Source of the DNA: an uncultured Clostridia bacterium
Lineage (GTDB): Bacteria > CAYTYR01 > UBA6262
Assembly: GCA_964441745.1 (NCBI GenBank)
Contig: CAYTYR010000010.1
Coordinates: forward strand, 11,464 to 75,463
Length of the DNA stretch: 64,000 nucleotides
Direction of reading: 5' to 3'
Part shown: piece by piece, positions 31,361-56,947 of the stretch
Position numbering within the stretch: position 1 is the first letter of the stretch
How the letters are laid out: each line of letters begins with the position of its first letter
The notes under the pieces: model-generated
The model's input: the letters and a program-made list of their open reading frames with translations, nothing else
Told to the model about the DNA's origin: nothing
The model's database searches: none
Position numbers and translations under genes: made by a program

Positions 31361-31375
31361 GAGAACCTCCAAGAT

Positions 31376-34974: not shown

Positions 34975-35640
34975 TTATGCGGTTAGTTGGTCTTTAAGCT
35001 GCCTGGTCAGGATAGTGAAGTTCTTTTCCTGGTAGTATTTCCGCTGGCCCGGCTCAAGCAAAGAACCGAGCTTGACTGCATAATCATTTCTTTGCAATTC
35101 TTCTATCCCCTTAACCAATGCCTTTAACTCTTCAGCCGTAGCGGTAACCGCCACCCCTTTTTTCAGCAAAAACTCCAGGTCATAGACATCCCTGATTTCT
35201 CTCCGGCTCAGGAAAGCCTCGATCTTGGCCCGCATCATTTCTTGCAGACTAACCACCCGCAAGAGGACTTGGACATTGGACTGAGAGCTAAAAGCAATAG
35301 CCGACTCCGTGTTTATTTTCTTAAGTTCTTTCCTGATCTCGATTTTCAGGGAACGCGCATAGGCCGGTGATTTGAGCTCAAAAAGCATGGTATGGAACTT
35401 ATTAGCCGCAGCAGTAATAGTATAGACCTGGGCTAGATAAGTCTTTAATTTCTGGAAATACTCCTTAGGCTCAATATCCTTAATTACCCAGAAATCAAGG
35501 TCCACCGAGTACCGCCCCAGCCCGTGGCAGAGACGCAGCATGGTCCCGCCGCCAAAAACAAGATTCCGGAGAAACCGGCCGCTATTCAGCCGGTCCAGGA
35601 CTTCCAATTCAAATTGTTCGTGCTTTTTCAGATCTTGCAT
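34975..35640 (-). CDS. AbiEii-family nucleotidyltransferase (type IV TA toxin)
   Basis: FGGGTMLRL.HGL.RYSVDLDF, KIEA...R.E.RDVYDL. Confidence 0.9.
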   Translation of the reverse strand: MQDLKKHEQFELEVLDRLNSGRFLRNLVFGGGTMLRLCHGLGRYSVDLDFWVIKDIEPKEYFQKLKTYLAQVYTITAAANKFHTMLFELKSPAYARSLKIEIRKELKKINTESAIAFSSQSNVQVLLRVVSLQEMMRAKIEAFLSRREIRDVYDLEFLLKKGVAVTATAEELKALVKGIEELQRNDYAVKLGSLLEPGQRKYYQEKNFTILTRQLKDQLTA

Positions 35641-36224
35641 ATATTCCTCACTATTTTCCTGGTTTTAGCCGGGTATGGCTTCAGCATTTTGGCTATTTTT
35701 GCTTGATCCAATTTGCTGAGATCCAGGGAATTAAGGTCAATTTTATATTTACCAAAAGAATAAAGATACAGAGCATCCAGAAAGGCCTTTTCCTTGGTCG
35801 CAATGAACAAACTGCCCTGCCTGACAAAATCACCATAATACTTTTGTTGCAGTTTGTAATACTTAAAAACCACTCCGTTAGTTTCATACATAATGGTTCG
35901 TTTCCAGGCCGCGCTCTCTATGAATCCCTGCTGCATTTGGCTGGTCACTTCATAATAAGACAAAGCGCTCATGAAGGAAATATACGAAGGCACTTGCAGG
36001 ATATTGGCGATTTGACGAAGCTCCTGGTCACTGATATTTTGCCATTTCTGGGCAGTAGTAAAATAGTTATTCCTTAACTTGACCAGCAGTCCCTTTTGGA
36101 CATACCGGCTGCAAAACACACTGGCCGAAGGCGCTTGAATCCCCAAAGTCTCAGCCACCTCCGCCACTGTAAAATAAATCTTTTGGCTCAATTCCTGTAT
36201 TTTTAGGCTATTTTTACTAAGCAT
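35628..36224 (-). CDS. AbiEi-family antitoxin
   Basis: N-terminal wHTH-like region, PSYISFMSALSYY, ATKEKAFLD. Overlaps the toxin gene; a TTGACA-17-TATTAT promoter lies just upstream. Confidence 0.85.
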   Translation of the reverse strand: MLSKNSLKIQELSQKIYFTVAEVAETLGIQAPSASVFCSRYVQKGLLVKLRNNYFTTAQKWQNISDQELRQIANILQVPSYISFMSALSYYEVTSQMQQGFIESAAWKRTIMYETNGVVFKYYKLQQKYYGDFVRQGSLFIATKEKAFLDALYLYSFGKYKIDLNSLDLSKLDQAKIAKMLKPYPAKTRKIVRNICKI

Positions 36225-39984: not shown

Positions 39985-40024
39985 GTCCCCCCTGCCAGTT
40001 TCGCATCGCGAAACTAGGGGGGAT
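39985..40024. repeat. REP-like ~40 bp hairpin, copy 3 of 3
   Basis: gtcccccctgccagtttcgc...gcgaaactaggggggat. Confidence 0.8.
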
Positions 40025-40026
40025 AA

Positions 40027-40969: not shown

Positions 40970-41061
40970 TATATTCATACTATTTGCTTTTCCTGATATC
41001 CTGTTATCCTGATATTCTCTTCCTAATATCCTGATCACCTGATACCCTTTACTATTATTAT

Positions 41062-43984: not shown

Positions 43985-44138
43985 TTTACTATCTCCTTTT
44001 TTTTAAATTTTAGTTGCCTTTATAACCACAAAAAACCGCAGAGAGTTTTGCCGCTCTCAGCAGCTCAAAATAGACAATGTTAAAATGATTGTTACAACAT
44101 TACTCAAGTGATTACTCATACTTTTTGAATTTCCTGCA

Positions 44139-44166
44139 CGGTATCAGGGGAATCCCCCTGATACCG
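44139..44166. terminator. Strong GC hairpin after PEP-CTERM protein 5
   Basis: cggtatcagggg-aatc-ccctgataccg. Confidence 0.5.
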
Positions 44167-44202
44167 CACAGACTGATCTAATTCATGCGCATTAACTAAA
44201 TC

Positions 44203-44955: not shown

Positions 44956-45172
44956 CCCCTCCCTTTACTTACATTTGCTTTATGCAATATGTAGTTAATA
45001 TTATATCTTAAACCTTAACTCACCTGTCCCCGCGGCTTTGATTTGTCTCTTAAGACAAATCAGCAGGGGAAAACTTAAAATTCAAAACTCAAACTGCACT
45101 TTGCTCTTACGACCAACTACTCACCACGAATGTCTTTTCGCCTTTCTATCCGCTACACGCTATACGCTATTT

Positions 45173-46081
45173 TTACCGTGCGCCCTTCCCGGTCAGCATC
45201 ACCACAAAGGTACCAAAGATGATCCTCAGGTCCATCAGCAGGCACATCTTCCTGATATATAATAGGTCATAGTGGACTTTCTTCTTCACATCACTCAGGG
45301 TAGAATCATAGTGCTGGCGTACCTGCGCCAATCCGGTAATGCCTGGCTTTACTCTCAGCCGCTTATTATATTTTTTGATTGATTTATTCAAGGTAGGAAT
45401 GATCTGGGCCCTTTCCGGCCTTGGCCCGATCATGCTCATATCTCCCATAAGCACATTGACCAACTGTGGCAATTCATCCAAATGGGTCTTTCTTAAGAAC
45501 CTGCCCACAGAAGTGATCCGGGGGTCATTTTCCTGGCACCAGACAGCGCCGGTTTCTTGCTCTGCATCTATTTTCATAGTCCTGAACTTATACATGGTAA
45601 AAGAGCGCCCAAAGCTTGGCCCAGCCCGGCGGTCAGTGCCCCGGCTCGCTCTGCGTCTCTCGCTATAGCGCTTGTTTTCTCCTACTCGTTCCTGATTGAA
45701 GAATACTGGCCCTTTGGAAGTTAATTTTATAGCAATTGCTATGACTATCCACAAAGGAGCTGTCACGATCATAGCTAATCCAGCCATCACTATATCCATA
45801 CCTCTTTTGATCTGCCGGAAGAATCTCCTGAAACTGGTCGCTAGCAGTCCAAATATGCCACTGCCAAACAATACCATCGTACCAGGTTCTGGAAGGTGGG
45901 CTACTTCAGCCGATAGGTTCTGGACATAAATTTCGCGCTCCAAATCCAAATTCTGTTTGTTGGTATTACCTGCGGTATTAATACTCAAGTCACTCGGTAA
46001 TCCATCTATTACATAAGCCTGCGCCAAGACGGATAATAGAAGAGTCAAGCTGAACACTAAGTAAAATACTATTCTCTTCAT
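45173..46081 (-). CDS. Fusion of signal peptide, PEP-CTERM module and bacterial sugar transferase (priming phosphoglycosyltransferase) domain
   Basis: MKRIVF...AQA signal, LPEPGTMVLFGSGIFGLL+RR, then KRGMDI, YKFRTM, DPRIT.VGRFLRK.HLDELPQL.NVL.GDMS.IGPRPE, VKPGITGLAQV. Confidence 0.92.
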   Translation of the reverse strand: MKRIVFYLVFSLTLLLSVLAQAYVIDGLPSDLSINTAGNTNKQNLDLEREIYVQNLSAEVAHLPEPGTMVLFGSGIFGLLATSFRRFFRQIKRGMDIVMAGLAMIVTAPLWIVIAIAIKLTSKGPVFFNQERVGENKRYSERRRASRGTDRRAGPSFGRSFTMYKFRTMKIDAEQETGAVWCQENDPRITSVGRFLRKTHLDELPQLVNVLMGDMSMIGPRPERAQIIPTLNKSIKKYNKRLRVKPGITGLAQVRQHYDSTLSDVKKKVHYDLLYIRKMCLLMDLRIIFGTFVVMLTGKGAR

Positions 46082-46162
46082 ATCCCCATCTCCCTTTCTT
46101 TTAGAAACGATCACACAGATTTTAAAAAAGATTACACCGATTAAAGCTAACATAAAAATACA

Positions 46163-46211
46163 TGAGATTAACTAATTGTTCAGTTAATCTCACGGCATCG
46201 TGTCAACTAAC
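46163..46211 (-). promoter_or_regulatory. Operator-like inverted repeat plus a motif shared with the HTH-HD-GYP upstream region
   Basis: TGAGATTAAC-10-GTTAATCTCA; GTTAATCTCACG-N5-GTGTCAACTAAC contains a minus-strand TTGACA. Confidence 0.6.
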
Positions 46212-46352
46212 ATCCCTAATCATCAAACTATATAATAGTTGTTTCTTGATAATTTTTTAGGCTTGTGTTTGTACTTTTCTTATCTCTTACTGCCTCTTGC
46301 CTTTACTACTCTTCCGCACGACGTACGACGCACAACATACGACTGCTTCAGA

Positions 46353-46532
46353 CTATTTCATCTTCTCAGTCAACCAAAGCTTTACCCGAATCCCTTCCTG
46401 TATAGCGATATTAATATCGGCATACTTAAGGGATTTGGCTTTACGATATGCGTGCAATATTTCTACTTCATCTTTGGGAATCCCATTAGACCTGCGTTCC
46501 TGCCTTCTGCGTTCATTGGCAGAGTTCTCCAT
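46353..46532 (-). CDS. Small DUF2292 (YezD)-like protein, 59 aa
   Basis: GGAGG RBS; MENSANERRRQERRS...EILHAYRKAKSLKYADINIAIQEG. Confidence 0.6.
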   Translation of the reverse strand: MENSANERRRQERRSNGIPKDEVEILHAYRKAKSLKYADINIAIQEGIRVKLWLTEKMK

Positions 46533-46643
46533 GACTGGCCTCCATTGATGGTGAGCTTTAACGATCTTAAAATACCACAACACTATGCTTTTGTCAACAT
46601 TTATTTTTAAAAATATTCGATTTTATACGATTTTAACCGATAT

Positions 46644-47438
46644 CTAACATTGTATCATTTCTTTCTTGGCGACATTTTCCAAAACAGCGACCAAGTTTGA
46701 CGCAAACTGGATGTTTTCAAATTTCTTTATCTCGTCGATACTGACCTGTATATTTTCTTTACCTTTGGCTTTATTCTTGTACATGATGACATCAAAAGCT
46801 TCAGCCAGGCCGACTATTTGCGCGTCCAGCGGTATCGCGCCCCCTTTCAACCCTTCCGGGTATCCCATACCGTTGTACCATTCATGGTGATGCTTGATGA
46901 TCGGACTGAAAATTTGCAGGTACTCCACATCCTTAACCATTTCTGAGCCAAATTGCGGGTGCTTTTTTAATTCCTTGTATTCATCACGGGTTAGCTTGTC
47001 AGTCTTGCTCAGTATATCATTGTCCACATTCAATTTACCAATATCATGCAGGAGTCCAGCCATATTTAACAATTCGATTTTGTCATCTTTAAACCCCATC
47101 GCCTGGCCGATCAACCGGCATATCTTGGCCACTCTGGCGCTATGTCCCAGAAACATGGGTATTTCTTTGCCTTCAATGGCGCGGACCATGGCCCTGACGA
47201 TCAAGGCGCTCACATCCATTAATTCTTTCAAGTCATTGCCTTTAAGCTCATCAGCCGCTGTTTCCAGTTTTCTATTTACTTCTGATTCCAGAATACGGTG
47301 ATGCCCGCCTGGCGTTTTAAACGACTTGATCTTACCCTGGTAAATATAATTCTTGACCGTCTGAACGCTGACCTTTAGTATGTTGGCAACTTCCCTGATG
47401 GTTAGAACTCTATGTTCGCGAGGAATGTCTTCGATCAT
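46644..47438 (-). CDS. Excisionase-like HTH (HTH_17/MerR-type) fused to an HD-GYP domain
   Basis: LTIREVANILKVS..TV.NY..QGKI...KTPGGHHRI; GHSARV, HDIGK, HHHEWYNGMGYP. Confidence 0.9.
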   Translation of the reverse strand: MIEDIPREHRVLTIREVANILKVSVQTVKNYIYQGKIKSFKTPGGHHRILESEVNRKLETAADELKGNDLKELMDVSALIVRAMVRAIEGKEIPMFLGHSARVAKICRLIGQAMGFKDDKIELLNMAGLLHDIGKLNVDNDILSKTDKLTRDEYKELKKHPQFGSEMVKDVEYLQIFSPIIKHHHEWYNGMGYPEGLKGGAIPLDAQIVGLAEAFDVIMYKNKAKGKENIQVSIDEIKKFENIQFASNLVAVLENVAKKEMIQC

Positions 47439-47516
47439 AATTCTACCCTTTATATTTGAAGTTCAGAGTTCTATATATGTCTATCAAAACAAAAAAAAAC
47501 GTGAAGAAATGCACTG

Positions 47517-47544
47517 GTTAATCTCACGTTTTGTGTCAACTAAC
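47517..47544 (-). promoter_or_regulatory. Second copy of the GTTAATCTCACG-Nx-GTGTCAACTAAC motif
   Basis: Both 12-mers are identical to those at 46183-46211; the spacer is 4 nt rather than 5. Confidence 0.6.
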
Positions 47545-47737
47545 GCTAAACTCTTTGTATTTTATTACTTATATACGCTTTTTATCCCTTCTTGTCAAGC
47601 ATTTTCTTCTAAAATACGATTACACCGATTTTAAAAGCGATTACACCGATTAAAACCAATACCTTAACACTTTACACTTATAACTTTACACTGTTTTTGT
47701 ATTTCTTTTCTTACTGCCAACCGCGAACGGTTTTTAT

Positions 47738-48532
47738 CTACCGTACCATATTCAAAATCATTTCCCGGTCAAATAGCTTTAATTCATTTTTGTCTTCCAG
47801 GAATCGTTCCACATCTTTTCTGGCAGATGACAGATCGATCAAGGCTAGATGTTCCACCATAAATTGCTTAAAATTGCCAGATGTGACCTGCCAATCTTTC
47901 TTCTCTGTTTGGGCAATGGCATTATTCAACAAAAGGTAATTTGGCTCAATCCCTTTGCCCAAATACCAGATCAAATCATAAAAATCACGCCCCTTAGTAA
48001 ATCTCCTGAAAAAGCAGGCATGTAATTTGGCCGCGTACAGGGAGGGCAGATCAAAACTATTCACGGCAAAGACGAACGACCTGGTTACCGGAATTACTAT
48101 TGTTTTCCAGCCAGCAGGCGGATTCGTGTCAATCTCCAGCTTTACTGCCAGCTTTTGCTCTTGTACCTGGCTCAAACCTAATTCTTTCAGCAACCCCGGG
48201 AATTTGATCATACTGCTATGCACTATCTTATCTTGGTCAGGCTCTGCCTCCACTTTAAATCCATAATGCTTCAGCTCAAACAGCAGATCTTTCAGCAGCT
48301 TTTCGAAAGAATAATCCTTCTTCTCTACTAAGCTAAAATCCAAATCCTCGCTATATCGCCGCAGATCATAAAGAACTCTCAAGGCCGTACCGCCTACAAA
48401 CGCCATATTGCCAAAAGCGCCTCGGTCAAACATGATCTTAAGCATCAGTGCCTGCAGTGTTTCCCTGGTCTTATTTACTTTGTCTTCCAGGCTCATCCCC
48501 AGACTAAAACCTTGTTTGATCGATTCAATCAT
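47738..48532 (-). CDS. AbiEii-family nucleotidyltransferase toxin
   Basis: FVGGTALR..Y.L.RYSEDLDF, KLEID.NPP, KLHA...R...KGRD.YDL.WY. Confidence 0.92.
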   Translation of the reverse strand: MIESIKQGFSLGMSLEDKVNKTRETLQALMLKIMFDRGAFGNMAFVGGTALRVLYDLRRYSEDLDFSLVEKKDYSFEKLLKDLLFELKHYGFKVEAEPDQDKIVHSSMIKFPGLLKELGLSQVQEQKLAVKLEIDTNPPAGWKTIVIPVTRSFVFAVNSFDLPSLYAAKLHACFFRRFTKGRDFYDLIWYLGKGIEPNYLLLNNAIAQTEKKDWQVTSGNFKQFMVEHLALIDLSSARKDVERFLEDKNELKLFDREMILNMVR

Positions 48533-48535
48533 TAT

Positions 48536-49174
48536 TTATCTCCACACTTCTTTTACAACTCTCCTCAGCTTGTGACTCTCAAACAACTCGGCATAGCGCA
48601 ATAAATTTCGCTGATCCAGAGTTTCCAGGTTCTGTAAACGGAATGATTCGCTAGCCCTCAGCTTAAATTCATCTTTGAATAAATGAAGGTTCAAATACAG
48701 AAAATCAACCACTGCTTTTTCCGCAACAGCCAGATAATAGGCTAAGCCGGAATCATCTTTCATTTCCCTGAATCCAGTAAAACAGCGCTCTGGCACATGC
48801 TGGTAAACAAACCTGCCGAGAAAATTTTGAAATACGGCTGTCTTTTTGGAAGAAATGCAGGTAATATCCGCGACTCTTTCAGGAATTAGCCCATAAAAAG
48901 CCAAAGCATACTCCATGCTCACATAAGAGGGACTATATAATTCTTTAGAAATATATAAACGGGAAGGATTGATCTTGCGGTCTTCTTCATTGAGAATATA
49001 TAAGCCCTGCCTCAGCCTTAAGAGCTTGCCGGTCTTGACCCAGCGGCTAACTTGATTTTTAAATGACTGTGACTCATCAGCCACTAGTTTTAAGTATTGA
49101 CTGCTGATCAGGGGCACGCCTTTTACTTTTTTCCGTAACTCTTCATATCTCATAGTATTCCTGTTAATAATCAT
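48536..49174 (-). CDS. AbiEi-family antitoxin
   Basis: RW.K.GKLLRLRQGLY, PSYVSMEYAL.FYGLIPE, AEKAVVD.LY. Confidence 0.88.
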   Translation of the reverse strand: MIINRNTMRYEELRKKVKGVPLISSQYLKLVADESQSFKNQVSRWVKTGKLLRLRQGLYILNEEDRKINPSRLYISKELYSPSYVSMEYALAFYGLIPERVADITCISSKKTAVFQNFLGRFVYQHVPERCFTGFREMKDDSGLAYYLAVAEKAVVDFLYLNLHLFKDEFKLRASESFRLQNLETLDQRNLLRYAELFESHKLRRVVKEVWR

Positions 49175-49230
49175 TATTGATTACTTACAGAAACAATAAT
49201 AGCTTATATTCTTCTGTTTGTCAAGCAAAA

Positions 49231-49294
49231 AAATACACCTGCGAGGTGACCACGCTTCCCAGGGGGCTCCTCGGAGGTGGATTCTGGTTGCTTT
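49231..49294. repeat. ~64-bp hairpin/terminator module, copy 1
   Basis: aaatacacct.cgaggtg.ccacgcttcccagggg.ctcct.g.aggtg...ggttgcttt; second copy at 50395-50457. Confidence 0.85.
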
Positions 49295-49361
49295 TTCTGG
49301 TGTCTGGTGTCTAGATTACTTGTGTCCTTTGCTCTTACGACGAACGACGAACGACCAACGG

Positions 49362-50147
49362 CTAACCGCGAACGGATTTTTCTCTTAGCAGGTCAAAGAC
49401 CATCGCTAAAGTCAACGGACTTGGATCCTGTACATCAACTGAACTCCATGCATCCATCATATACTGTTCTATATATGCATACGGCAAATAGCCATACCCG
49501 TCATCTCCCCAGCTTTCAGACCACGAATTTTTAAATTTAACTAACTTCTTCTTATCATCATACCCAACCGGACATATCGCATGCCCACCCAAAGAAGATT
49601 CCTTTCTATTCGGCAAAGGCACTACTCCATTTTTTGCATCCATCATCCCGTTAAATACTTCCACCCCGATCACAGCCGGGCCTTTCTGCGCCAAGCTCAT
49701 CTTCAGCTCTGGCAAATTTAAGATCCTGGCATAGGTTAAAACGCTGAACTTCTTGGCATTGTCTTTGGCCCCAGGCTTGGGCCTATCCTGCTGGTGCGGT
49801 TTGTACGGCCAGTACTTCTCCCGGCAAACCCCCCATTCTTTCAGCACTTTCATGGCGGTACGGATAGTCGTGCCTTCGCCATCAAACCCATCTATTTTCT
49901 TGCACTCATTGTACAGGAACCGCGGAGAAAGTTCTACCAGTTTGCCATAATCCACCTGCTCCTGGTATTCCTTCATCCCCACGGTACTGGCAAACCCGAC
50001 GCATGTGCCTTCATCTCCCTGGTCCCGCACCGGGGACATCTTGCCGGTATGATCAACTTTTACCGGTAATTTTGCCACCGGCAAATACGCCCGCATCAAG
50101 TAATCTCTTTCATCCATCCTATCCCGCACACATCCTAATCTAGTCAT
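49362..50147 (-). CDS. C1 (papain-like) cysteine peptidase, no signal peptide
   Basis: RDQGDEGTCVGFA (Gln/Cys), GGHA (His), KNSW (Asn), WGDDGYGYLPY. Confidence 0.92.
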   Translation of the reverse strand: MTRLGCVRDRMDERDYLMRAYLPVAKLPVKVDHTGKMSPVRDQGDEGTCVGFASTVGMKEYQEQVDYGKLVELSPRFLYNECKKIDGFDGEGTTIRTAMKVLKEWGVCREKYWPYKPHQQDRPKPGAKDNAKKFSVLTYARILNLPELKMSLAQKGPAVIGVEVFNGMMDAKNGVVPLPNRKESSLGGHAICPVGYDDKKKLVKFKNSWSESWGDDGYGYLPYAYIEQYMMDAWSSVDVQDPSPLTLAMVFDLLREKSVRG

Positions 50148-50173
50148 CTCAATACGCTCCTTGCCTCCGGTAT

Positions 50174-50326
50174 TCAGCCAACGAAGTTACCTCTTTTATT
50201 GCTGGCATCCGCGTGACCAGCTTTAAGCTTGGTTAGTAATTTTTTGTCTGAATTGATCTGGGCCTTCTCCACCGAATCTGTAAGATACTCCTCTTCGCTT
50301 AACTGTGTAGTTATCACTTTAGCCAT
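50174..50326 (-). CDS. Small orphan antitoxin-like protein (50 aa)
   Basis: Missing from the ORF track. GGAGAG RBS; MAKVITTQLSEEEYLTDSVEKAQINSDKKLLTKLKAGHADASNKRGNFVG resembles Phd/RelB-type antitoxin C-termini. Confidence 0.5.
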   Translation of the reverse strand: MAKVITTQLSEEEYLTDSVEKAQINSDKKLLTKLKAGHADASNKRGNFVG

Positions 50327-50394
50327 ATTACTCTCCATATTCTAATATATTTAATATGATTCTAACATATTTTAGAGTTCCTGTTAAGCAAATA

Positions 50395-50457
50395 AAATAC
50401 ACCTTCGAGGTGTCCACGCTTCCCAGGGGACTCCTGGAAGGTGTTACCGGTTGCTTT
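50395..50457. repeat. ~64-bp hairpin/terminator module, copy 2
   Basis: Direct repeat of 49231-49294. Confidence 0.85.
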
Positions 50458-51140
50458 CAGTCTTTTAACAAGCTTTCTATTTCGCTTTCATCTATTTCTT
50501 TCACACCTTTTAGTATCTTCTTCTGCCACTTTTCAGGCACTGACTTAAATACTTTCTTTATAACCCTTGATTCACCTTTTTCTATTAGTGCCTTTAGTAT
50601 CCTAACCGCCGCTTCTTTATCTTTCGCTATCTTGTCAGGCTTATTGCGCCTTTGGAAGATAATCAATTTATGCAACGCAAAATTCGCCGGATGCGGCACA
50701 TTAATAGTTAATCCTTCGATCTCAACCTTGATAACATTATCGCTCAAAAAGGTCAGGAACCTTAGGGTAGTAGCATTTACGCCCAACCGCGGCAGAGGAT
50801 ACGGTTTATCTATCCCCTTGCCTTTCTCAGGGACTAGGAACTCTACGATTAAATCCGGATGTTCCAACTTAATATACCCCTTATCTCCCATGAAACCCAC
50901 AACAAATCCTAAATCTTTTAGGATTTCTGGAATATCCGTTTGACATCTAATTCTATGCGGCTCAGGTACTAATATATCAATATCCCTGGTCCTTATTGTT
51001 GGCATAAATTTTGTCCCGGCGAAATAGTTCTTATAAAAGGGCAGACACCAGCTTCCTATAAAAACTATATCGTTTAATACCCCGGCTTTATTCAGCTTCT
51101 TTAAGATATCAACACAAAGCTCATATTGCTTCTTTTCCAC
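50457..51140 (-). CDS. GSU2403-family (NTP_transf_8-like) nucleotidyltransferase-fold protein
   Basis: VFIGSWC..FY, RTRDIDIL, VEFLVP, VPHPA.FALHKLII..RR...K..KD. Confidence 0.8.
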   Translation of the reverse strand: MEKKQYELCVDILKKLNKAGVLNDIVFIGSWCLPFYKNYFAGTKFMPTIRTRDIDILVPEPHRIRCQTDIPEILKDLGFVVGFMGDKGYIKLEHPDLIVEFLVPEKGKGIDKPYPLPRLGVNATTLRFLTFLSDNVIKVEIEGLTINVPHPANFALHKLIIFQRRNKPDKIAKDKEAAVRILKALIEKGESRVIKKVFKSVPEKWQKKILKGVKEIDESEIESLLKD

Positions 51141-51438
51141 GCAAACTGCTCCTTAGGAATTTAATCTGTTTCTTTACTTGAGATAGCATCTTCCGGTACT
51201 TAGCCCTGTACTTTTTTGCTTCCCCATACTTGTGGATATCTTCCCCTGAAACCTTACCTTTATAGAAGAAATTAACCTTATCTTTGTCACGTACTTGTAG
51301 ATAATAGTAATTATGTCCTTTTATATTTTTCTTGACTAAGCTACCCTTAGGCAATTGAGCTAAGGCCTTCTCATAGCTTTCTTTCATATGCAAAGAATTT
51401 TCTAACTCTTCTTTTAAAACTCCTTTTATAGCTCCCAT
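51121..51438 (-). CDS. Small basic partner protein of the nucleotidyltransferase
   Basis: AGGAGA RBS; LPKGSL..K.IKG..YYYLQ.R...KV...Y.G; overlaps the downstream gene. Confidence 0.75.
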   Translation of the reverse strand: MGAIKGVLKEELENSLHMKESYEKALAQLPKGSLVKKNIKGHNYYYLQVRDKDKVNFFYKGKVSGEDIHKYGEAKKYRAKYRKMLSQVKKQIKFLRSSLRGKEAI

Positions 51439-51456
51439 AGCATTCTCCTTTTTAAA

Positions 51457-51556
51457 GTTACCATACATCATCACTAATAATATACCTTGTATGGTAACCA
51501 TTGTCAATAAAAAAGTTACCATACATCTTTTTTTATTACTATATTTGTATGGTAAC
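51457..51556. promoter_or_regulatory. Four copies of GTTACCATACA in alternating orientation around a sigma70 promoter
   Basis: Copies at 51457-51467, 51488-51498 (rc), 51515-51525 and 51546-51556 (rc); minus-strand TTGACA-17-TATATT. Confidence 0.75.
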
Positions 51557-51586
51557 TAACCAGCCAGCCTTTCAAGAGCTATTTAT

Positions 51587-51614
51587 AAAAACACCCCAAG
51601 CTTCCGCCTGAGGT
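51587..51614. repeat. 28-bp terminator-like direct repeat, copy 1 (copy 2 at 52599-52626)
   Basis: aaaaacaccccaagcttccgcctgaggt is identical in both places. Confidence 0.85.
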
Positions 51615-51735
51615 TTTGTTCATTCCCTGATTCCTGTTACCCTGATATCCACTTCCTGATACCCTGATCACCTGATACCCTTCTCTTGCTTTCCTGTCCG
51701 CTGTCCGCTGACCGCTGTTACTCATATCGCTTCAA

Positions 51736-52251
51736 CTACTTCATCTCAAAAACCAACTGTTTATGAAACACTTCTGCAAATCGTTTTAATGTACCTATAC
51801 ATATATTCTCCCGGCCGCTTTCCACTCTGGAAATATATTGCTGGATCACCCCAAGCTTTTTAGCCAACTCCTCTTGAGTATATCCTGATTGTTGCCTCTG
51901 CTTTTTAAGTATCTGAGCTATTTTTATCCTTTCAGGGATGTCACCAGCCTCACGCCGAACCCTAAGACTAATACCCTGTTTCTGCAATAATTCCCGTTCC
52001 AGGGCATATTGTGTCTGCCAGAAAGCAAGCTTGTCTTTATTCCAGGCATCTTTTTCCAGCCGCTTCCTGATTGCCGGCCATTTACGGCAAAAATCCTTCT
52101 GGTTAATAAACCTAAATACTACTTCCGGTTTCTGCGCCCGAGAAATCAATTTCCCGGCATATATAGGAAACCTCGGATTACTGGAATCTTTCAGTATATT
52201 CCGAACTTCCTGCTCATTTAATCTTGTATCCCACAGCCAATTTATTTTCAT
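51736..52251 (-). CDS. XRE-family HTH protein with N-terminal extension
   Basis: C-terminal LKKQRQQSGYTQEELAKKLGVIQQYISRVESG..N; N-terminal WLWD domain. Confidence 0.88.
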   Translation of the reverse strand: MKINWLWDTRLNEQEVRNILKDSSNPRFPIYAGKLISRAQKPEVVFRFINQKDFCRKWPAIRKRLEKDAWNKDKLAFWQTQYALERELLQKQGISLRVRREAGDIPERIKIAQILKKQRQQSGYTQEELAKKLGVIQQYISRVESGRENICIGTLKRFAEVFHKQLVFEMK

Positions 52252-52259
52252 AACCCACC

Positions 52260-52548
52260 CTACCTTTCTATCAACCCCGGCAGTATCCTCAAGATCTGCT
52301 CATCCAGATACCTGATCACATCAGCCGTATCAATATTTTCCACTAAATCTAATAATTCCAATTTTAAGTCTGCCCGGTTGTTGCTGTTTATATTTCTGAC
52401 TAAAGAAATCCAGATCTTCTGAAAATCTATGCTGATAATAGAACGCCAAAGCAGTGCCGCCAGTCAGATAGTAGTCTTTATATTTATCAGTAACTATTCG
52501 GGCTATCCTCTTCTGTTCCCTCTTGATCATATTGATTTTCTTATCCAT
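52260..52548 (-). pseudogene. Internally deleted, frameshifted AbiEii-like nucleotidyltransferase
   Basis: N-terminal YLTGGTALAFYY.HRFSEDLDFF is intact, then the frame breaks. A plausible C-terminus LDLVENIDTADVIRYLDEQILRILPGLIER* sits in another frame, abutting the HTH gene. Confidence 0.75.
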
Positions 52549-52564
52549 ATTACCCTCCGCTATA

Positions 52565-52593
52565 ATAATACTACTTATAAGTAGTATTGTCAA
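52565..52593 (-). promoter_or_regulatory. Sigma70 promoter with a 22-bp perfect palindrome
   Basis: TTGACA-17-TATTAT; AATACTACTTATAAGTAGTATT at 52567-52588. Confidence 0.75.
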
Positions 52594-52732
52594 TTAAAAA
52601 AAACACCCCAAGCTTCCGCCTGAGGTCTTTGCTTTTGCTCTTACGGCCAGCCGCGAGGCCGCTTTGCGGCCGGACCGCGAACCGCCAACGGTCCTTTTCC
52701 TTTCCTATCCGCTATACGCTATACGCTATACG

Positions 52733-55700
52733 CTATTTTACAATTGCCATCTTCCCCGTTTTCTCATGCCCTTCCTCATCCCAGGCATAATAGATATAGA
52801 CGCCGCTGGCCGCATCCTGGCCATCCTCATTCTTGGCGTCCCAAAAAGCTACCCCGCTTTGCTCTTCCAGCTCCCTGACCAGCTCACCTGCTAAATTAAA
52901 TATTTTTATCTTGGCTGTTGGTGTCAAATGCGAGATCGTGATCAATCCGCCGCTGGCTTTCTTCCAGGGATTCGGGAAGCTCCGCACCCGTTCCAGGTTC
53001 ATCACCGGCCCGCTCAATGTTTCCGCACAATTGGATAGCTCGGATACATTGCCCACTGAATCTATAGCTTTTAAGGCAAAATAATAATGCTGCTGGACTG
53101 CCAGGTTATTAATAGTCATCAGTTCTTTTAAACCAGCTTCTTTCGGCGTAGGCGCGTAATCCAGGGCATTTGCCAAGTTCCAAGTACTCGCATCAATATA
53201 ACCAAGTGAATACTTGACAATATAGCTCGCCGCTGTGCCAGTTGTGCCATTGTTGCCCGGCGCCGTCCAGTGCAGCATCACTTGCCCGTCGATATTGCCT
53301 GGCTCGGCCTGCAGGTCCTCTATTTTACCCGGAGCAATTGCATCACTATTAGCGGCAAAAGTTTCAGTCACATTGGATATGACCGAAGCATTATTATCGC
53401 TATCATAGCTTTTGATCGCAAAATAATATTGCTGTCCAGGAGCAAGATTGCTCACAACAAAGCTCTGCGGTTCACCTGGATTGACCGGGGAAGGTGAGGT
53501 TGGATATTTCCCGGCCCCGCTCCATTCTACTTCGCTCTCGCTGAATATCCGCCACAGGTTCACTTCATAAATATGATCTGTAGAATACCGTATCTCATAC
53601 TCTTTGACCTTGCTGGCATCAGCAGAAGCCGGAGCGGTCCAGGATAAAAAAACAGAGCCATTAGCACTGCCTACCTGTCCGGATAGATCATTGATTTTGC
53701 CGGGAGGAATGCCGCCCTTAGCCTTGGCAGCAACAATATTGGATAAAGCAGAAACATTGCTCCCGGTGTCTGAAGACTTAATGCCGAAATAGTATCTTTG
53801 GTTAGCAGTTAGATTAGCGATAGTCAAACTTTGATATGTCCCTGACACTGCCGTACTTGGTGCATTTAATACCCTAACCGCCATCTGCCATCCGCCATCT
53901 GTGATCGTTACTGTTGAATATCTGATATCATACTCTTTCGCCTTGCCGATACTACCGTCATTACCAGACGCAGTCCACCCTATCACTACCTCGCCGATAT
54001 TGGTGCCGGCAGTAGCAGTCAAGTCAGCGATCGCTCCCGGCGCTATCGAGTCTGCGCCTATAGTTACGGTGGCCACATTGGATAAGGCAGATTCATTATC
54101 TGCCCCGTCCGTACTTTTAATAGCGATATAATAGGTCTGCCCAATATCCAGGTCATATATTTTTGCTGATTCTGTAAATCCGGCAGAATTAGGTGCTAGG
54201 GCAACATCCAACAAAGTGCCTTGTGTAAAGTTAGAAGCATTCAAGGCAAAAGAAGCATACCGAATTTCATAATCTAATGCCGTCCCGGCAGAACCATCTC
54301 CGCCGGGAGCTGTCCAGGTGATCGTGGCCTCGCCACCGGCTGTATTGGTGCCTGCCAGCGTAGTGACCTGCCCTGGCGGGGTAGTATCCCCGATAGGATT
54401 ATAGGCCACTGCCTGCGGGACATTGAAGACTCCTGAACCAAAATTACTATTATCAATGGCCTGCACCGCGAAATAGTATTGCTGTCCAGGAGTAAGCCCA
54501 GTCACTACAAATCTTTCCGCGCTTCCTGCCACTTGAGGCTCTGGCTCACTGGAGCATTGCGTAGCACTGCTCCAGGTATAGGCATTGATCAAGGCCTGAG
54601 AATAGCGGATATCATACATCAAAGCTGTGCCAGCACTGCCATCATCACCAGTAGCGGTCCAATTCAAGACCACCTCTCCGCTATGCGCGCCAGAATCTGC
54701 TGAAACATCAGTAATACCAGCCGGAGCAGTAATATCCACTTCCCCGGATTTATATGCCTGGCAGGAAGATATATTGGATAATGCAGATGTATTGAAGCTA
54801 TCATCACTGGTTTTCAGGGCAAAATAATAAGTGGTCCCAGGAGTGAGGCCACTTAAAGTGACTACTTCAGAAGAACCAGCAATTTTAGGCACTGGCTCAC
54901 TTAAATACTGGGTTGCATCTGTCCAATTAGCATCACTTATACTATTTAAAGAATATCGCAAATCATATGAAGAAGCAATACCATTTTCATTATCATCTCC
55001 TGGCGCTGTCCAGCTCACCACTATCCGCCCATCAATGGTCCCAGGCACAGCCGTCAGGTCAGTCACTTCAGCCGGTGCCGTCCCATCACCTGTCTTGGCG
55101 CTCACAGTGTTAGAATTGCCTGAAGTATGTGGTATTGAGTTAGTCGTTTGCATAGCAAAATAATAGGTGGTTTCACTTTGCAGCCCAGTAATCACCATAC
55201 TTTGAGTCGTCCCAGCTACTTGTGGAATTGGTTCGCCACTTACCTGATTTGCTGCATCCCAAGTTGACTCATCTATTGAGACTAATGAATATCTTATATC
55301 ATAAGAAGTAGCAGTCCCGGTATTCTCATCAGATCCTGGCGCAGTCCAAGCCAAGGTCACGCTATTAGTACCAGTATTACTCACTGATAAGTCAGTAATC
55401 ACCGCCGGAGTTGGCCCATAGATACTACTTGGGATGGTATTCCCTAGATATTCCCAGATATATCTGGTTAAAGTAGTCCCCTCAGCGCAGAACCCGCGAT
55501 CCCCAGATACCCCGCCTTCATCATATGCCTTCATCTTACTCCGGATCAAATCCTCATTCGGAAATGGCCACATACTCACTCCGGTATCAGTATTATACCC
55601 AGCTTCACCCCAAAGCGTACCCGGAGTACCGATTAAAGTCGTAATATTTGCTCCAATATCCGCTCCGCTTTCACCCTGCCCTTTTAGATTTGAACCAGTT

Positions 55701-56947
55701 TCAATACGAGTGATATACTTCAACGCCCCTGTCAGATTGGTTGAGGCATTCCAAAGAGGATTAACAGAAGTATTATGTGTACCAGTGACCCCGGTCGCAT
55801 TAGAATTGCCATTTAGGCAATTGTAGTCTTGTCCTTCTACATCATACATTAAAATAGAAGTGCCTGTCTGGTTGTAAATAATATTGTCTTTAACAACACT
55901 ATTGTTCTCGCCTGAATCAGGATCACTACTATTAAAAAATCTCAACCCATTACTAATATTGTTCCCAAAAGTACAATTAAGGACTGAGGTATTTGGCCCA
56001 CGAATAGTATAAAAACCATTCCCATCTACAGTTTTACCATCCCAAACTACACAGTCTTGGAATACAATCTCGTGAGAATCTTTAGCGCTGTTTATACCAC
56101 CAACGGCACAGTTCAGGCCAATACATCTAGTAAAATTTACCCGATTAGCAGACATATCAGTAGAAGGCACAGCAAAACATCCTGCATATTCGCTGGCATT
56201 GATATAATAGCTCGATTGGTCAGAATCGATAGCTATGCAATTTTGCACTTCCCCATCGGAAACAGAATACATAGAATAATTAGCTATTACATCAGGACTA
56301 CCAGGAAAGCTATGCCGATCATGCCTGGCAACACAGTTGCGGAGAATTATATGGTTACTCTGATATGGTTCAAATTTATATCTTCCTGTCCCATAAGAAT
56401 AACAACCTTCTAATAACACATAATCATCATGCCGGATATAGAAGTTGTTAGTGTTTCCGTCGCCACAATCGTATGCTCCACAACGTAGAAACTTGACATA
56501 AGAAGCGTGAATAAGATTTACATTGGGGCCAGGGGTATTACACCAGAGCAATCCCTCAAATTGCCAATATACATTATCAGTAGGAGAACTTACATCTACA
56601 TAATCAAACATTGCATTTTTATCTTGCCCATCAAAAATCGCTTCCCCATCGTGTTCCGCTTTCACAATAGTATAATTACTGGAGGTGCCAAAAGGTGGGA
56701 ACTGATTTCCTGTTCCACCGAAATAGATGGAATTTACATATCCAGTGTATGTACCATCTTTACAGATAAGAGTATCCCCTCCTTTTATACTGGTCATGCC
56801 TTTACTCAGTGTTGCCCAAGGAAGTACGGAAGAACCAGTACCTGAAGAATCATCTCCAGTAGGAGAAATGTAATAGGTAGAGGCAAATAGGCTCGTTGTC
56901 GCAAATAGTAAACTTACGATTGCGAATATAAAACAAAACCTTTTCAT
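52733..56947 (-). CDS. Secreted 1404-aa protein: right-handed beta-helix + 7 FN3-like repeats + FlgD/T9SS-CTD-like C-terminal domain
   Basis: Signal peptide; YYISPTGDD; seven repeats of the form APG.I.DL...W.APG.DG..G.A..Y.IRYS...YYFA; C-terminal FPNPW...IKIFNLAGELVR...WDAKNEDG...ASGVYIY...GKMAIVK. Confidence 0.85.
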   Translation of the reverse strand: MKRFCFIFAIVSLLFATTSLFASTYYISPTGDDSSGTGSSVLPWATLSKGMTSIKGGDTLICKDGTYTGYVNSIYFGGTGNQFPPFGTSSNYTIVKAEHDGEAIFDGQDKNAMFDYVDVSSPTDNVYWQFEGLLWCNTPGPNVNLIHASYVKFLRCGAYDCGDGNTNNFYIRHDDYVLLEGCYSYGTGRYKFEPYQSNHIILRNCVARHDRHSFPGSPDVIANYSMYSVSDGEVQNCIAIDSDQSSYYINASEYAGCFAVPSTDMSANRVNFTRCIGLNCAVGGINSAKDSHEIVFQDCVVWDGKTVDGNGFYTIRGPNTSVLNCTFGNNISNGLRFFNSSDPDSGENNSVVKDNIIYNQTGTSILMYDVEGQDYNCLNGNSNATGVTGTHNTSVNPLWNASTNLTGALKYITRIETGSNLKGQGESGADIGANITTLIGTPGTLWGEAGYNTDTGVSMWPFPNEDLIRSKMKAYDEGGVSGDRGFCAEGTTLTRYIWEYLGNTIPSSIYGPTPAVITDLSVSNTGTNSVTLAWTAPGSDENTGTATSYDIRYSLVSIDESTWDAANQVSGEPIPQVAGTTQSMVITGLQSETTYYFAMQTTNSIPHTSGNSNTVSAKTGDGTAPAEVTDLTAVPGTIDGRIVVSWTAPGDDNENGIASSYDLRYSLNSISDANWTDATQYLSEPVPKIAGSSEVVTLSGLTPGTTYYFALKTSDDSFNTSALSNISSCQAYKSGEVDITAPAGITDVSADSGAHSGEVVLNWTATGDDGSAGTALMYDIRYSQALINAYTWSSATQCSSEPEPQVAGSAERFVVTGLTPGQQYYFAVQAIDNSNFGSGVFNVPQAVAYNPIGDTTPPGQVTTLAGTNTAGGEATITWTAPGGDGSAGTALDYEIRYASFALNASNFTQGTLLDVALAPNSAGFTESAKIYDLDIGQTYYIAIKSTDGADNESALSNVATVTIGADSIAPGAIADLTATAGTNIGEVVIGWTASGNDGSIGKAKEYDIRYSTVTITDGGWQMAVRVLNAPSTAVSGTYQSLTIANLTANQRYYFGIKSSDTGSNVSALSNIVAAKAKGGIPPGKINDLSGQVGSANGSVFLSWTAPASADASKVKEYEIRYSTDHIYEVNLWRIFSESEVEWSGAGKYPTSPSPVNPGEPQSFVVSNLAPGQQYYFAIKSYDSDNNASVISNVTETFAANSDAIAPGKIEDLQAEPGNIDGQVMLHWTAPGNNGTTGTAASYIVKYSLGYIDASTWNLANALDYAPTPKEAGLKELMTINNLAVQQHYYFALKAIDSVGNVSELSNCAETLSGPVMNLERVRSFPNPWKKASGGLITISHLTPTAKIKIFNLAGELVRELEEQSGVAFWDAKNEDGQDAASGVYIYYAWDEEGHEKTGKMAIVK

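What the first reader, a model, noticed from the sequence alone, without database searches (positions are those of the whole stretch)
47600..52735. Integrase-free cassette array: TA/nucleotidyltransferase modules delimited by repeated terminator + heptamer junctions
Seen: four modules (AbiEi-AbiEii; antitoxin-like + C1 peptidase; small partner + GSU2403-type NTase; AbiEii relic + XRE). Three begin with a TTGACA-17 promoter. Junctions share direct repeats (64 bp at 49231/50395; 28 bp at 52599/51587) that read as hairpin + T-run on the coding strand, usually beside heptamer tracts. No integrase, transposase or attC core is visible. Inference: self-contained expression units may be gained and lost by recombination at shared junction modules, giving an integron-like array inside an EPS/PEP-CTERM locus.
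Basis: partly seen in the sequence, partly recalled or inferred. Interest (0 to 1): 0.65.

Follow-up and report, generated by a model that had tools for sequence, protein, structure and literature searches.

The report
Toxin-antitoxin hotspot with duplicated terminators
Between two conserved cell-surface genes of an uncultured Elusimicrobia-like bacterium lies a 5-kb hotspot where small self-regulated toxin-antitoxin operons are gained, swapped and eroded; it is a known kind of genomic spot, not an integron, but its module boundaries are unusually tidy.

Summary
Window 47.4-52.7 kb (all genes on the minus strand) holds four units, each with its own promoter. Two repeated junction modules occur twice each: T28 at 51587/52599 and T64 at about 49227/50391. 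Both fold as hairpin plus T-run.

Two units are eroded. The "AbiEii relic" is a roughly 300-nt deletion in an AbiEii-like nucleotidyltransferase that pairs with the XRE protein. The 54-aa ORF is a decayed RHH antitoxin whose ParE toxin was deleted, so it is not a partner of the C1 peptidase.

Relatives carry at least eight different contents between the same FN3 and HD-GYP genes. These range from empty, to C1 only, to large TA islands. The order is therefore not invariant.

Several breakpoints and identity jumps sit exactly at the hairpin/T-run/-35 joint; others do not.

There is no integrase, no attC core and no promoterless cassette. Heptamer tracts and two-copy intergenic repeats occur across the whole window.

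Best reading: a chromosomal TA/Abi "spot" turned over by general recombination. Duplicated intrinsic terminators act as short homology patches, and modules erode toxin-first. This is a new member of a known kind.

The parts
52733..56947 (-). Upstream anchor gene: a 1404-aa surface protein with a beta-helix, many fn3 repeats and a C-terminal sorting-type tail.
   Evidence: Pfam. It is conserved upstream of the hotspot in relatives.
52630..52732 (-). 3'UTR of the FN3 gene (junction A). It contains four TAGCGTA-type heptamers (the fourth reads TAGCGGA) and GTTNGCG-type heptamers. It is hypervariable among relatives.
52599..52626 (-). T28 copy A: a 9-bp stem, GGAA loop and T-run. This is the intrinsic terminator of the FN3 gene.
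   Evidence: It is the first hairpin after FN3 in L003, L084/L088 and L086.
52565..52593 (-). Promoter TTGACA-17-TATTAT with a perfect 20-nt palindrome (52568-52587) between the hexamers. The palindrome is a probable operator.
52330..52548 (-). Truncated AbiEii-like nucleotidyltransferase. A roughly 300-nt deletion between CAACCGG repeats causes a frameshift. The gene is intact (about 197-232 aa) in L003 and L084.
51736..52251 (-). 171-aa protein with a C-terminal XRE HTH domain. It is the downstream partner of the AbiEii-like gene and is now an orphan.
51618..51735 (-). Junction B 3'UTR. It contains CAGCGGA heptamers and an ATCAGG octamer tract that is 90% identical to 40999-41049.
51587..51614 (-). 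T28 copy B.
   Evidence: It is the left edge of the block that is 99-100% identical to L003. It is also the joint of the T28|RHH-promoter variant.
51456..51557 (-). p105 promoter (TTGACA-17-TATATT, 51479-51507), embedded in 43-nt inverted repeats of GTTACCATAC-type operators.
   Evidence: (I1).
51121..51438 (-). 105-aa partner protein with a weak DUF6788 match in its ortholog. It is a candidate antitoxin or regulator.
50457..51140 (-). NTP_transf_8 (PF12281, GSU2403-family) nucleotidyltransferase-fold protein. It is a candidate toxin.
50391..50454 (-). T64 copy C: a long imperfect hairpin plus T-run.
   Evidence: The same module stands before the same promoter in L091.
50359..50387 (-). RHH promoter TTAACA-17-TAGAAT, followed by TTAGAATAT-type direct repeats.
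50174..50338 (-). Decayed RHH/DUF6290 antitoxin with an internal deletion of about 80 nt. The ParE toxin gene that followed it is deleted; the scar is at about 50150-50173.
49362..50147 (-). Papain-family (C1) cysteine peptidase. It is the oldest resident of the hotspot. Elsewhere it is part of a cluster of a 333-aa protein, C1 and a PLD nuclease.
49291..49361 (-). Junction D 3'UTR with GTTCGTC and AGACACC heptamers.
49227..49290 (-). T64 copy D. It is absent at this junction in L003 and in the strain found in run X4.
49196..49224 (-). AbiE promoter TTGACA-17-TATTAT, followed by an AACAGAA/TTTCTGT inverted repeat.
47738..49174 (-). AbiEi (48536-49174) and AbiEii (47738-48532), an apparently intact type IV TA / abortive-infection pair.
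47439..47737 (-). Junction E. It holds heptamers, two AATCGGTGTAATCG repeats, and the HD-GYP promoter and leader hairpin that are conserved in all relatives.
46644..47438 (-). Downstream anchor gene: an HTH_17 plus HD-GYP (HD_5) protein.
34975..36224 (-). Second, separate TA insertion in the window: AbiEi-like (35628-36224) plus AbiEii (34975-35640), between ComEC and argB. It has its own TTGACA promoter and no junction hairpin.
   Evidence: Relatives have ComEC and argB adjacent.

Best explanation
The interval between the FN3 surface-protein gene and the HTH-HD-GYP gene is a chromosomal toxin-antitoxin / abortive-infection hotspot (a TA "spot") in an uncultured Elusimicrobia-like lineage.

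Each resident is an autonomous operon. It has a near-consensus sigma70 promoter carrying operator-like repeats, two small genes, a repeat-rich 3'UTR, and usually an intrinsic terminator that shields the next promoter from read-through. T28 and T64 are such terminators.

Modules enter and leave by the cell's general recombination after DNA exchange between strains, either short-homology or illegitimate. The roughly 22-nt core shared by most junctions is a favoured but not obligatory crossover patch. This core is the 3' arm of the hairpin (GGTGT), the T-run and the (T/A)(G/A)CTTGACA -35 box. Insertions there duplicate the upstream terminator or 3'UTR, which explains why the junction modules occur twice.

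Residents then erode toxin-first by deletions at short direct repeats.

Shown here: the anatomy, the variable content, the mosaic identity, the positions of the breakpoints and the erosion.

Inferred: that the hairpins terminate transcription, that general rather than site-specific recombination does the work, and that the intact pairs are active toxin-antitoxin or defence systems.
For: 1. Autonomy. There are four promoters with palindromic or direct operator-like repeats (I1). Both repeats are hairpins followed by T-runs.

2. T28 behaves as an RNA terminator. In 11 copies the stem is kept, including two G.U pairs and one G.U to A-U change. The loops are GGAA, GGGA or GAAA. The same 22-mer serves as an ordinary terminator in Paenibacillus, in a Flavobacterium MAG and on a viral contig.

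3. Hotspot. The anchor genes are conserved and the content varies:
- Empty in L093, and probably in the contig carrying P0009.
- C1 only in L087 and L092.
- Decayed RHH plus C1 in L086.
- NTase-XRE | TIM | RHH'-ParE' in L084/L088.
- ParE' | TIM | AbiE' | RHH-ParE-C1 in L091.
- A large TA island in L090.
- The window and L003 share one order.

4. Breakpoints at the junction core:
- Runs X3 and X4 hold a form that joins T28 to the RHH promoter and skips 1241 nt. L086 and L002 have the same joint.
- T28 versus T64 stands before the same RHH promoter in different genomes.
- Identity to L003 runs, along the minus strand: 82% in the FN3 end; unalignable in the UTR; 96-98% from T28-A onward; 82-93% in XRE; unalignable in the UTR; 99-100% from T28-B to the NTase8 stop; 84-91% in C1.
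- The same mosaic appears in the X4 contig.
- L084/L088 carry a 96-nt duplicate of the FN3 3' end plus T28 on both sides of an insertion.
- L091 has a half T28.

5. In the source sample, T28 and T64 occur only in this array.

6. Erosion. The ParE deletion scar is shared by the window, L003 and L086. The RHH gene carries different internal deletions in the window, L086 and L003. The NTase deletion lies between CAACCGG repeats.

7. No recombinase is present in the window or in the flanks of relatives.

8. The pattern matches published TA spots with toxin-first decay (PMC13617665).
Against: - No experiment or transcript data show termination or toxicity.
- Selection alone would favour breakpoints that keep a promoter with its genes, so coincidence with terminator/promoter joints is partly expected.
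- Several events do not use the hairpins.
- A 22-28-nt patch is at the lower limit for RecA-dependent exchange.
- 3'UTR tracts turn over very fast. Some "boundaries at T28" may therefore reflect UTR hypervariability rather than crossover points.
- The relatives are metagenome contigs and MAGs, so strain phylogeny and the direction of events (gain or loss) are not resolved.
Confidence: 0.55

Rival explanations
1. The array is the eroded remnant of successive site-specific integrations of small mobile elements at the 3' end or terminator of one gene. Each integration left a copy of the attachment region (3' end of the gene, UTR and hairpin). Integrases and other cargo were later deleted, and the addictive TA pairs survived.
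For: - The duplicated 3' end of FN3 plus T28 flanks NTase-XRE-TIM in L084/L088.
- In L090, five copies of a roughly 300-nt C-terminal fragment of an HD-GYP-like gene separate the TA cassettes. This is the pattern left by tandem integration into a gene's 3' end.
- Non-TA passengers are present: the TIM-barrel gene and the orphan C1.
- The streamlining model and the palindromes that flank TA operons are described in PMC13617665.
Against: - No integrase remnant or pseudogene appears in any of about 10 configurations.
- The duplicated segments differ in extent (37 nt, 96 nt plus 31 nt, about 300 nt) and share no common core.
- The joint of TIM to the FN3 end in L084 is an illegitimate fusion inside two coding regions.
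- Cassettes of about 1.2 kb were exchanged at 99-100% identity without any element backbone.
Confidence: 0.2
2. The array is a true integrase-free cassette system served in trans. A recombinase encoded elsewhere in the genome (Xer-like, integron-like or resolvase-like) recognises the T28/T64 hairpins as recombination sites and inserts or excises the cassettes.
For: - Direct repeats of T28 bracket NTase-XRE, and direct repeats of T64 bracket RHH-C1.
- Genomes without the insert have a single T28.
- L091 has a half T28 with its breakpoint in the loop.
- T28 with its 31-nt upstream tract also stands before a p105 homolog at an unrelated locus in another MAG.
- In the source sample the modules are restricted to the array.
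Against: - The T28 stem depends on G.U pairs and has GNRA loops, so it is an RNA-level structure.
- The same 22-mer is a plain terminator in unrelated taxa.
- There are no attC cores.
- T28 is a 9-4-9 hairpin in direct orientation, unlike an 11-6-11 dif site.
- Cassettes also move without the hairpins.
- L090's TA island uses a quite different junction and has no T28 or T64.
Confidence: 0.1
3. The array is static or an artefact. The repeats are chance or assembly duplications, and the order is simply inherited.
For: The order is identical in the closest relative, L003, and in the strains found in runs X4 and X5.
Against: - Zero matches are expected by chance.
- Independent assemblies from several studies reproduce the junctions.
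- Content differs in at least eight configurations.
Confidence: 0.02

Closest known systems
Chromosomal toxin-antitoxin "spots" with acquisition and erosion (Belot et al. 2026, Mol Biol Evol, PMC13617665)
   Same: - Small clusters of TA operons sit between conserved genes.
- Content is heterogeneous among relatives.
- Loss proceeds toxin-first.
- Some loci carry no mobility genes.
- Some TA operons are flanked by two copies of a 24-28-bp palindrome that is single at the empty locus.
   Different: - Here the palindromes look like intrinsic terminators rather than Tn3 res-like sites.
- The lineage is an uncultured Elusimicrobia-like one.
- The residents are mostly nucleotidyltransferase-type pairs (AbiE, AbiEii-like/XRE, GSU2403-type) plus RHH-ParE.
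Core defence hotspots between conserved genes (Pseudomonas aeruginosa cDHS; Johnson et al. 2023, PMC10250203)
   Same: Conserved flanking core genes bracket variable defence or TA cargo at a fixed chromosomal position.
   Different: I saw only the search listing and did not read the paper in detail. The present spot is much smaller (0-9 kb) and dominated by TA pairs. PADLOC recognises only AbiE here.
Integrons and CALINs (attC clusters lacking an integrase); from general knowledge
   Same: An array of short units in one orientation, separated by imperfect palindromes, with TA cassettes as common cargo.
   Different: - There is no IntI, attI or Pc.
- No GTTRRRY/RYYYAAC cores are present.
- Every unit has its own promoter.
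- The hairpins are RNA-type terminators.
pdif (XerC/D) modules of Acinetobacter plasmids; from general knowledge
   Same: Integrase-free modules, often TA pairs, are bounded by repeated 28-bp sites and shuffled by host enzymes.
   Different: - T28 is a 9-4-9 GC-rich hairpin followed by a T-run, in direct orientation. It is not an 11-6-11 XerC/XerD site in alternating orientation.
- The context is chromosomal.
- No dif consensus is known for this lineage.
AbiE type IV TA / abortive-infection systems; from general knowledge
   Same: An AbiEi antitoxin-regulator sits upstream of an AbiEii nucleotidyltransferase, with inverted repeats in the promoter. The window holds two intact pairs plus one truncated relative.
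   Different: Function is not tested here. The truncated AbiEii-like gene has the reverse order, with the nucleotidyltransferase first and the XRE protein second.

Membership tests
Integron / CALIN | An IntI tyrosine recombinase with attI and Pc next to the array (integron only). | tested here: not met
   All ORFs of the interval and of the whole window were scanned. The flanks of relatives were also scanned. No recombinase was found.
Integron / CALIN | attC sites at cassette ends, with an RYYYAAC ... GTTRRRY core pair 50-150 nt apart and a bottom-strand fold. | tested here: not met
   No core pairs occur at the five junctions on either strand. The T28 stem needs G.U pairs. The IntegronFinder covariance model itself could not be run.
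Integron / CALIN | Cassettes are mostly promoterless. | tested here: not met
   Each unit has a promoter matching 10-11 of 12 consensus positions.
pdif / Xer modules | 28-bp sites built as an 11-nt arm, a 6-nt spacer and an 11-nt arm, in alternating orientation around modules. | tested here: not met
   T28 is a 9-4-9 hairpin plus T-run, and all copies are in direct orientation. The dif sequence of this lineage is unknown.
Chromosomal TA / defence hotspot (spot) | The same conserved flanking genes in relatives. | tested here: met
   FN3 and HD-GYP (52-88% identity) flank the interval in L084, L086, L087, L088, L092 and L093.
Chromosomal TA / defence hotspot (spot) | Variable content among relatives, including empty sites. 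| tested here: met
   At least eight configurations were found. L093 is empty with a 115-nt spacer.
Chromosomal TA / defence hotspot (spot) | Cargo enriched in TA or defence genes. | tested here: met
   Cargo includes AbiE, AbiEii-like/XRE, GSU2403-type NTase, RHH-ParE, MNT/HEPN, PIN and PemK/MazE.
AbiE (type IV TA) | An AbiEi-family regulator adjacent to an AbiEii (PF08843) nucleotidyltransferase. | tested here: met
   PADLOC E-values are 4.5e-51 and 5.9e-69, and Pfam gives 2.8e-24. Toxicity and phage defence were not tested.
Intrinsic (Rho-independent) terminator | A GC-rich stem-loop directly followed by a U-run on the transcribed strand. | tested here: met
   The stem and GNRA loop are conserved in 11 copies. 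Termination in vivo cannot be tested with these tools.
REP / MITE-like dispersed palindromes | Many dispersed copies per genome. | tested here: not met
   There are two copies each in the window. In the source run they occur only in the array contig. Related MAGs carry one T28 per hit contig.

The most novel reading that the evidence does not exclude
This Elusimicrobia-like lineage may run a recombinase-free (or trans-served) cassette system. In it, the terminator/T-run/-35 core, or more generally the 3' end plus terminator of the upstream gene, is the insertion point. That region is duplicated at every insertion, so TA operons stack into arrays delimited by copies of the junction. Examples are T28 and T64 here, the 96-nt FN3-end duplicate in UBA6262, and five roughly 300-nt HD-gene fragments in the NC_groundwater_1672 MAG. 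Excision between the copies would release circles carrying one junction plus one cassette, which could re-enter at any homologous junction.
Probability: 0.22. Interest if true: 0.7.

Novelty: new member of a known kind. Interest (0 to 1): 0.42.

Why it matters
The locus gives a clean natural series, from empty site to six-module island, for how TA and abortive-infection operons are acquired, exchanged as single units and eroded in a little-studied uncultured phylum. It also identifies a concrete, testable crossover patch: the hairpin 3' arm, the T-run and the -35 box. If that patch proves to be used preferentially, it would explain how hotspots without mobility genes keep turning over. If not, the locus is an ordinary TA spot with duplicated terminators.

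Tried and rejected
- **Integron/attC reading.** No core pairs were found and no integrase is present.
- **High-copy REP/MITE reading of T28 and T64.** Copy numbers are too low.
- **Structured RNA family.** Rfam gathering-threshold hits in the window are tRNAs only.
- **Phage or plasmid vector for the cassettes.**
  - T64 is absent from the viral contigs.
  - The single T28 hit there is an unrelated bidirectional terminator.
  - No NTase8 relative occurs on viral contigs.
- **54-aa ORF as a partner or inhibitor of the C1 peptidase.** This is rejected.
  - The intact RHH-ParE pair in L002 and L091 shows its origin.
  - About 70%-identical C1 homologs elsewhere have other neighbours.
- **HD_5 fragments in L090 as copies of the adjacent HD-GYP gene.** They are only 29-41% identical to the window's HD-GYP protein, of which L090's adjacent gene is the 84% ortholog, so they derive from a paralog.
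- **T28 hits in Paenibacillus and Flavobacterium as horizontal transfer of cassettes.** This is rejected because the contexts are housekeeping genes.
- **Solved structures.** PDB sequence search gave nothing for NTase8.
- **Short-sided "joints" in run X1** (for example 45170 to 51632 and 51719 to 52708). These are explained by shared heptamer or octamer tracts, not by rearrangements.

Full report
**What is there.** All genes of the 64-kb window lie on the minus strand. Reading that strand from the FN3 gene (52733-56947) to the HTH-HD-GYP gene (46644-47438), the interval holds four units.

1. A truncated AbiEii-like gene (52330-52548), then a 171-aa protein with a C-terminal XRE HTH domain (51736-52251).
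2. A 105-aa protein (51121-51438), overlapping an NTP_transf_8/GSU2403-type nucleotidyltransferase (50457-51140).
3. A 54-aa ORF (50174-50338), then a papain-family C1 peptidase (49362-50147).
4. AbiEi (48536-49174) and AbiEii (47738-48532).

These assignments rest. PADLOC recognises only the AbiE pair, and does so strongly.

Three units start with TTGACA-17-TAT(T/A)(A/T)T promoters. The fourth starts with TTAACA-17-TAGAAT. Each promoter carries palindromic or direct repeats that look like operators (I1).

**The repeats are real.**
- T28 (ACCTCAGGCGGAAGCTTGGGGTGTTTTT) occurs at 51587-51614 and 52599-52626.
- T64 occurs at about 49227-49290 and 50391-50454, at 89% identity over 53 gapless nt.
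- Each occurs exactly twice in the window, with none expected by chance.
- Both are hairpin plus T-run on the coding strand and fold better than shuffles.

In 11 T28 copies from six related contigs and three unrelated organisms, the 9-bp stem is kept. This includes two G.U pairs and one G.U to A-U change. The loops are GGAA, GGGA or GAAA. That is the signature of an RNA hairpin, that is, an intrinsic terminator.

The same 22-mer closes housekeeping genes in a Paenibacillus, in a Flavobacterium MAG and on a viral contig. The sequence is therefore a convergent terminator solution, not a mobile signature in itself.

**Two of the four units were misparsed.**

*The 54-aa ORF.*
- In L002 and L091 the C1 gene is preceded by an intact 80-aa RHH/DUF6290 antitoxin and a 92-aa ParE-family toxin. 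The toxin's stop codon lies 1 nt before the C1 start codon.
- The window's 54-aa ORF is that antitoxin with its RHH core deleted.
- The ParE gene is gone. The same scar (aataccgga|g.caagg) appears in the window, L003 and L086.
- The antitoxin itself carries three different deletions in those three genomes.

*The relic.*
- It is an AbiEii-like nucleotidyltransferase that is intact in L003 and L084 and is paired with the XRE protein.
- The window has lost about 300 nt between two CAACCGG repeats.

Two units are therefore eroded toxin-first, as described for chromosomal TA systems (PMC13617665). Two units look intact.

**The interval is a hotspot.** The organism is Elusimicrobia-like. Syntenic contigs come from "Elusimicrobia bacterium UBA6262" and "Elusimicrobia bacterium NC_groundwater_1672". 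Using the HD-GYP orthologs and the C1 gene as anchors, I found the following contents between FN3 and HD-GYP.

| Locus | Content between FN3 and HD-GYP |
|---|---|
| L093 | nothing (115-nt spacer) |
| contig of P0009 | probably nothing |
| L087, L092 | C1 only |
| L086 | decayed RHH plus C1 |
| L084/L088 | intact NTase-XRE, a xylose-isomerase-like TIM-barrel gene, a different RHH-ParE pair |
| L091 | ParE', TIM, a different AbiE pair, RHH-ParE-C1 (upstream end not recovered: the contig starts inside the array, before any FN3 gene) |
| L090 | MNT/HEPN, PIN, AAA, PemK/MazE and two PIN pairs (no FN3 gene on the contig; anchored on HD-GYP only) |
| window, L003, strains in runs X4/X5 | the window order |

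**Where the breakpoints lie.** Several coincide with the junction modules.
- Runs X3 and X4 contain, besides the window-like form, a form in which T28 is joined directly to the RHH promoter. It skips 1241 nt, which is exactly promoter-p105-NTase8-T64. L086 and L002 show the same joint.
- As a result, the same RHH promoter is preceded by T28 in L002 and L086, and by T64 in the window and L091.
- Identity between the window and L003 is mosaic:
  - 82% in the FN3 end.
  - Unalignable in the 3'UTR.
  - 96-98% from the first base of T28-A onward.
  - 82-93% in XRE.
  - Unalignable again in the next UTR.
  - 99-100% from T28-B to the NTase8 stop (about 1.17 kb).
  - 84-91% in C1.
- The X4 contig shows the same pattern. 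A single cassette has therefore been exchanged recently between lineages that are otherwise about 88% identical.
- In L084/L088 the NTase-XRE-TIM block is flanked by a 96-nt, 95% duplicate of the FN3 3' end and UTR, plus T28.
- In L091 the TIM gene is followed by only the 3' half of T28.
- Most junctions share a core: GGTGT, a T-run, then (T/A)(G/A)CTTGACA.
- In the source sample, T28 and T64 occur only in this array.

Other events ignore the hairpins.
- The AbiE pair is inserted between the C1 3' end and the HD-GYP -35 box relative to L086, L087 and L091. L003 has no hairpin there.
- L095 has a 5'-truncated XRE abutting the p105 promoter with no UTR or T28, in a different context.
- The window holds a second AbiE pair (34975-36224), inserted between ComEC and argB.
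  - It starts 1 nt after the ComEC stop codon with its own TTGACA promoter.
  - It has no hairpin at either end.
  - Relatives have ComEC and argB adjacent.
- Erosion deletions end inside genes at microhomologies.

**What is not array-specific.**
- Of 34 period-7/8 tandem tracts, 31 lie in the 14% of the window that is non-coding. Most sit right after stop codons or beside tRNA genes.
- Tract families are shared between unrelated 3'UTRs and differ completely between close relatives at the same site.
- Other two-copy intergenic modules occur elsewhere in the window:
  - 94 nt at 28305 and 31358.
  - A 42-nt palindrome at 34857 and 39985.
  - 46 nt at 14564 and 25937.

**Not an integron.** No integrase or transposase occurs anywhere in the window or in the flanks of relatives. 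No attC core pairs occur. Every unit has its own promoter. T28 is not built like a dif site.

**Most likely mechanism.** This is a TA/Abi spot. Autonomous operons are insulated by terminators and exchanged by general recombination. The terminator/T-run/-35 core serves as a favoured short homology patch. Insertion duplicates the upstream terminator or UTR. Residents then erode toxin-first.

I put this reading at 0.55. The rivals are:
- Eroded tandem integrations of small elements whose integrases were lost (0.2). The repeated 300-nt gene-fragment junctions in L090 fit this best.
- A trans-acting site-specific recombinase (0.1).
- A static array or assembly artefact (0.02).

**Closest published parallel and verdict.** The closest parallel is the TA-spot model of Belot et al. 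(PMC13617665). It includes TA operons flanked by two copies of a 24-28-bp palindrome that is single at the empty locus.

This is a new member of a known kind, of moderate interest.

Noticed in passing
window-wide, e.g. 4890-4915, 12829-12860, 24118-24476, 26393-26646, 28323-28394, 31376-31447, 40991-41048, 45070-45170, 52705-52736: Tandem heptamer or octamer tracts of many different units (TAGCGTA, ACTTACC, CGTTTAG, ATCAGG-type and others) sit directly after stop codons and between tRNA genes. 31 of 34 such tracts lie in the 14% of the window that is non-coding. They are completely different in sequence and length at the same site in close relatives, yet families are shared between unrelated 3'UTRs. 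They resemble cyanobacterial STRR repeats and Beggiatoaceae TAACTGA repeats (PMC4679880). I did not find them described for this lineage.
   Followed up: partly
window 34975-36224: A second AbiEi-like/AbiEii pair is inserted between ComEC and argB, which are adjacent in relatives. The insertion starts 1 nt after the ComEC stop codon with its own TACTTGACA-17-TATTAT promoter. It replaces about 70 nt that included the argB -35 box.
   Followed up: yes
window 34857-34898 and 39985-40026: A 42-nt GC-rich palindrome (CCCCCCTAGTTTCG...CGAAACTGGCAGGGGGG) occurs in two copies at 93% identity and has no T-run. One copy lies in the argB 5'UTR, where relative L087 lacks it. It looks like a small palindromic insertion element.
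   Followed up: partly
window 28305-28398 and 31358-31451: A 94-nt composite occurs twice at 93% identity, behind two housekeeping genes. It consists of two heptamer tracts in inverted orientation (TAGCGTA... / ...TACGCTA) that can form a long hairpin.
   Followed up: no
window 45173-46153 (also L090 9923-11245, L093 11042-12457): The polyprenyl-phosphate sugar transferase (Bac_transf) carries an N-terminal segment with a PEP-CTERM motif (residues 88-110). The fusion is conserved in relatives.
   Followed up: partly
window 47616-47659 and 46107-46150; hairpins at about 47490-47525 and 46161-46194: The upstream regions of the HD-GYP gene and of the sugar-transferase gene share two 21-nt-spaced AATCGGTGTAATCG-type repeats (44 nt, 86%) and a GTGAGATTAAC-containing hairpin followed by a T-run. 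This suggests a common regulator and a leader attenuator for the EPS locus. The HD-GYP leader is conserved in all relatives.
   Followed up: no
L004, L010, L021 and other loci around the C1 homolog: About 70%-identical homologs of the C1 peptidase in many metagenomes sit in a conserved cluster: a roughly 333-aa protein with no Pfam match, then C1, then a PLD-like nuclease (PLDc_2, sometimes with an HTH). This is a candidate conflict system of which the window's C1 is an orphan.
   Followed up: partly
L090 405-7170 and 7514-8241: In the NC_groundwater_1672 MAG, the TA island upstream of HD-GYP has five copies (about 62-93% identical to each other) of a roughly 300-nt C-terminal fragment of an HD-GYP-like paralog. 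Each copy separates one TA cassette from the next. A 1.3-kb non-coding stretch follows, with 112-nt inverted repeats at 89% complementarity.
   Followed up: partly
window 43988-46182: Strains in landfill runs X3 and X4 join 43987 to 46183. They thereby lack one PEP-CTERM protein gene and the sugar-transferase gene. The joint lies in a 124-nt repeat (43881-44004 / 45978-46101, 73%).
   Followed up: no
window 50457-51140: The GSU2403-type nucleotidyltransferase family is very widespread. 1637 clustered proteins match at E<=1e-40, mostly at 60-65% identity, in Omnitrophota, Clostridia and others. It has no solved structure detectable by sequence and no PADLOC model. Its small upstream partner has only a weak DUF6788 match.
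   Followed up: partly
window 17569-17841 and 20725-20950: Repeats of 131 nt (95%) and 106 nt (92%) lie at the starts and upstream regions of two paralogous ABC substrate-binding protein genes that flank a TonB-dependent receptor gene.
   Followed up: no
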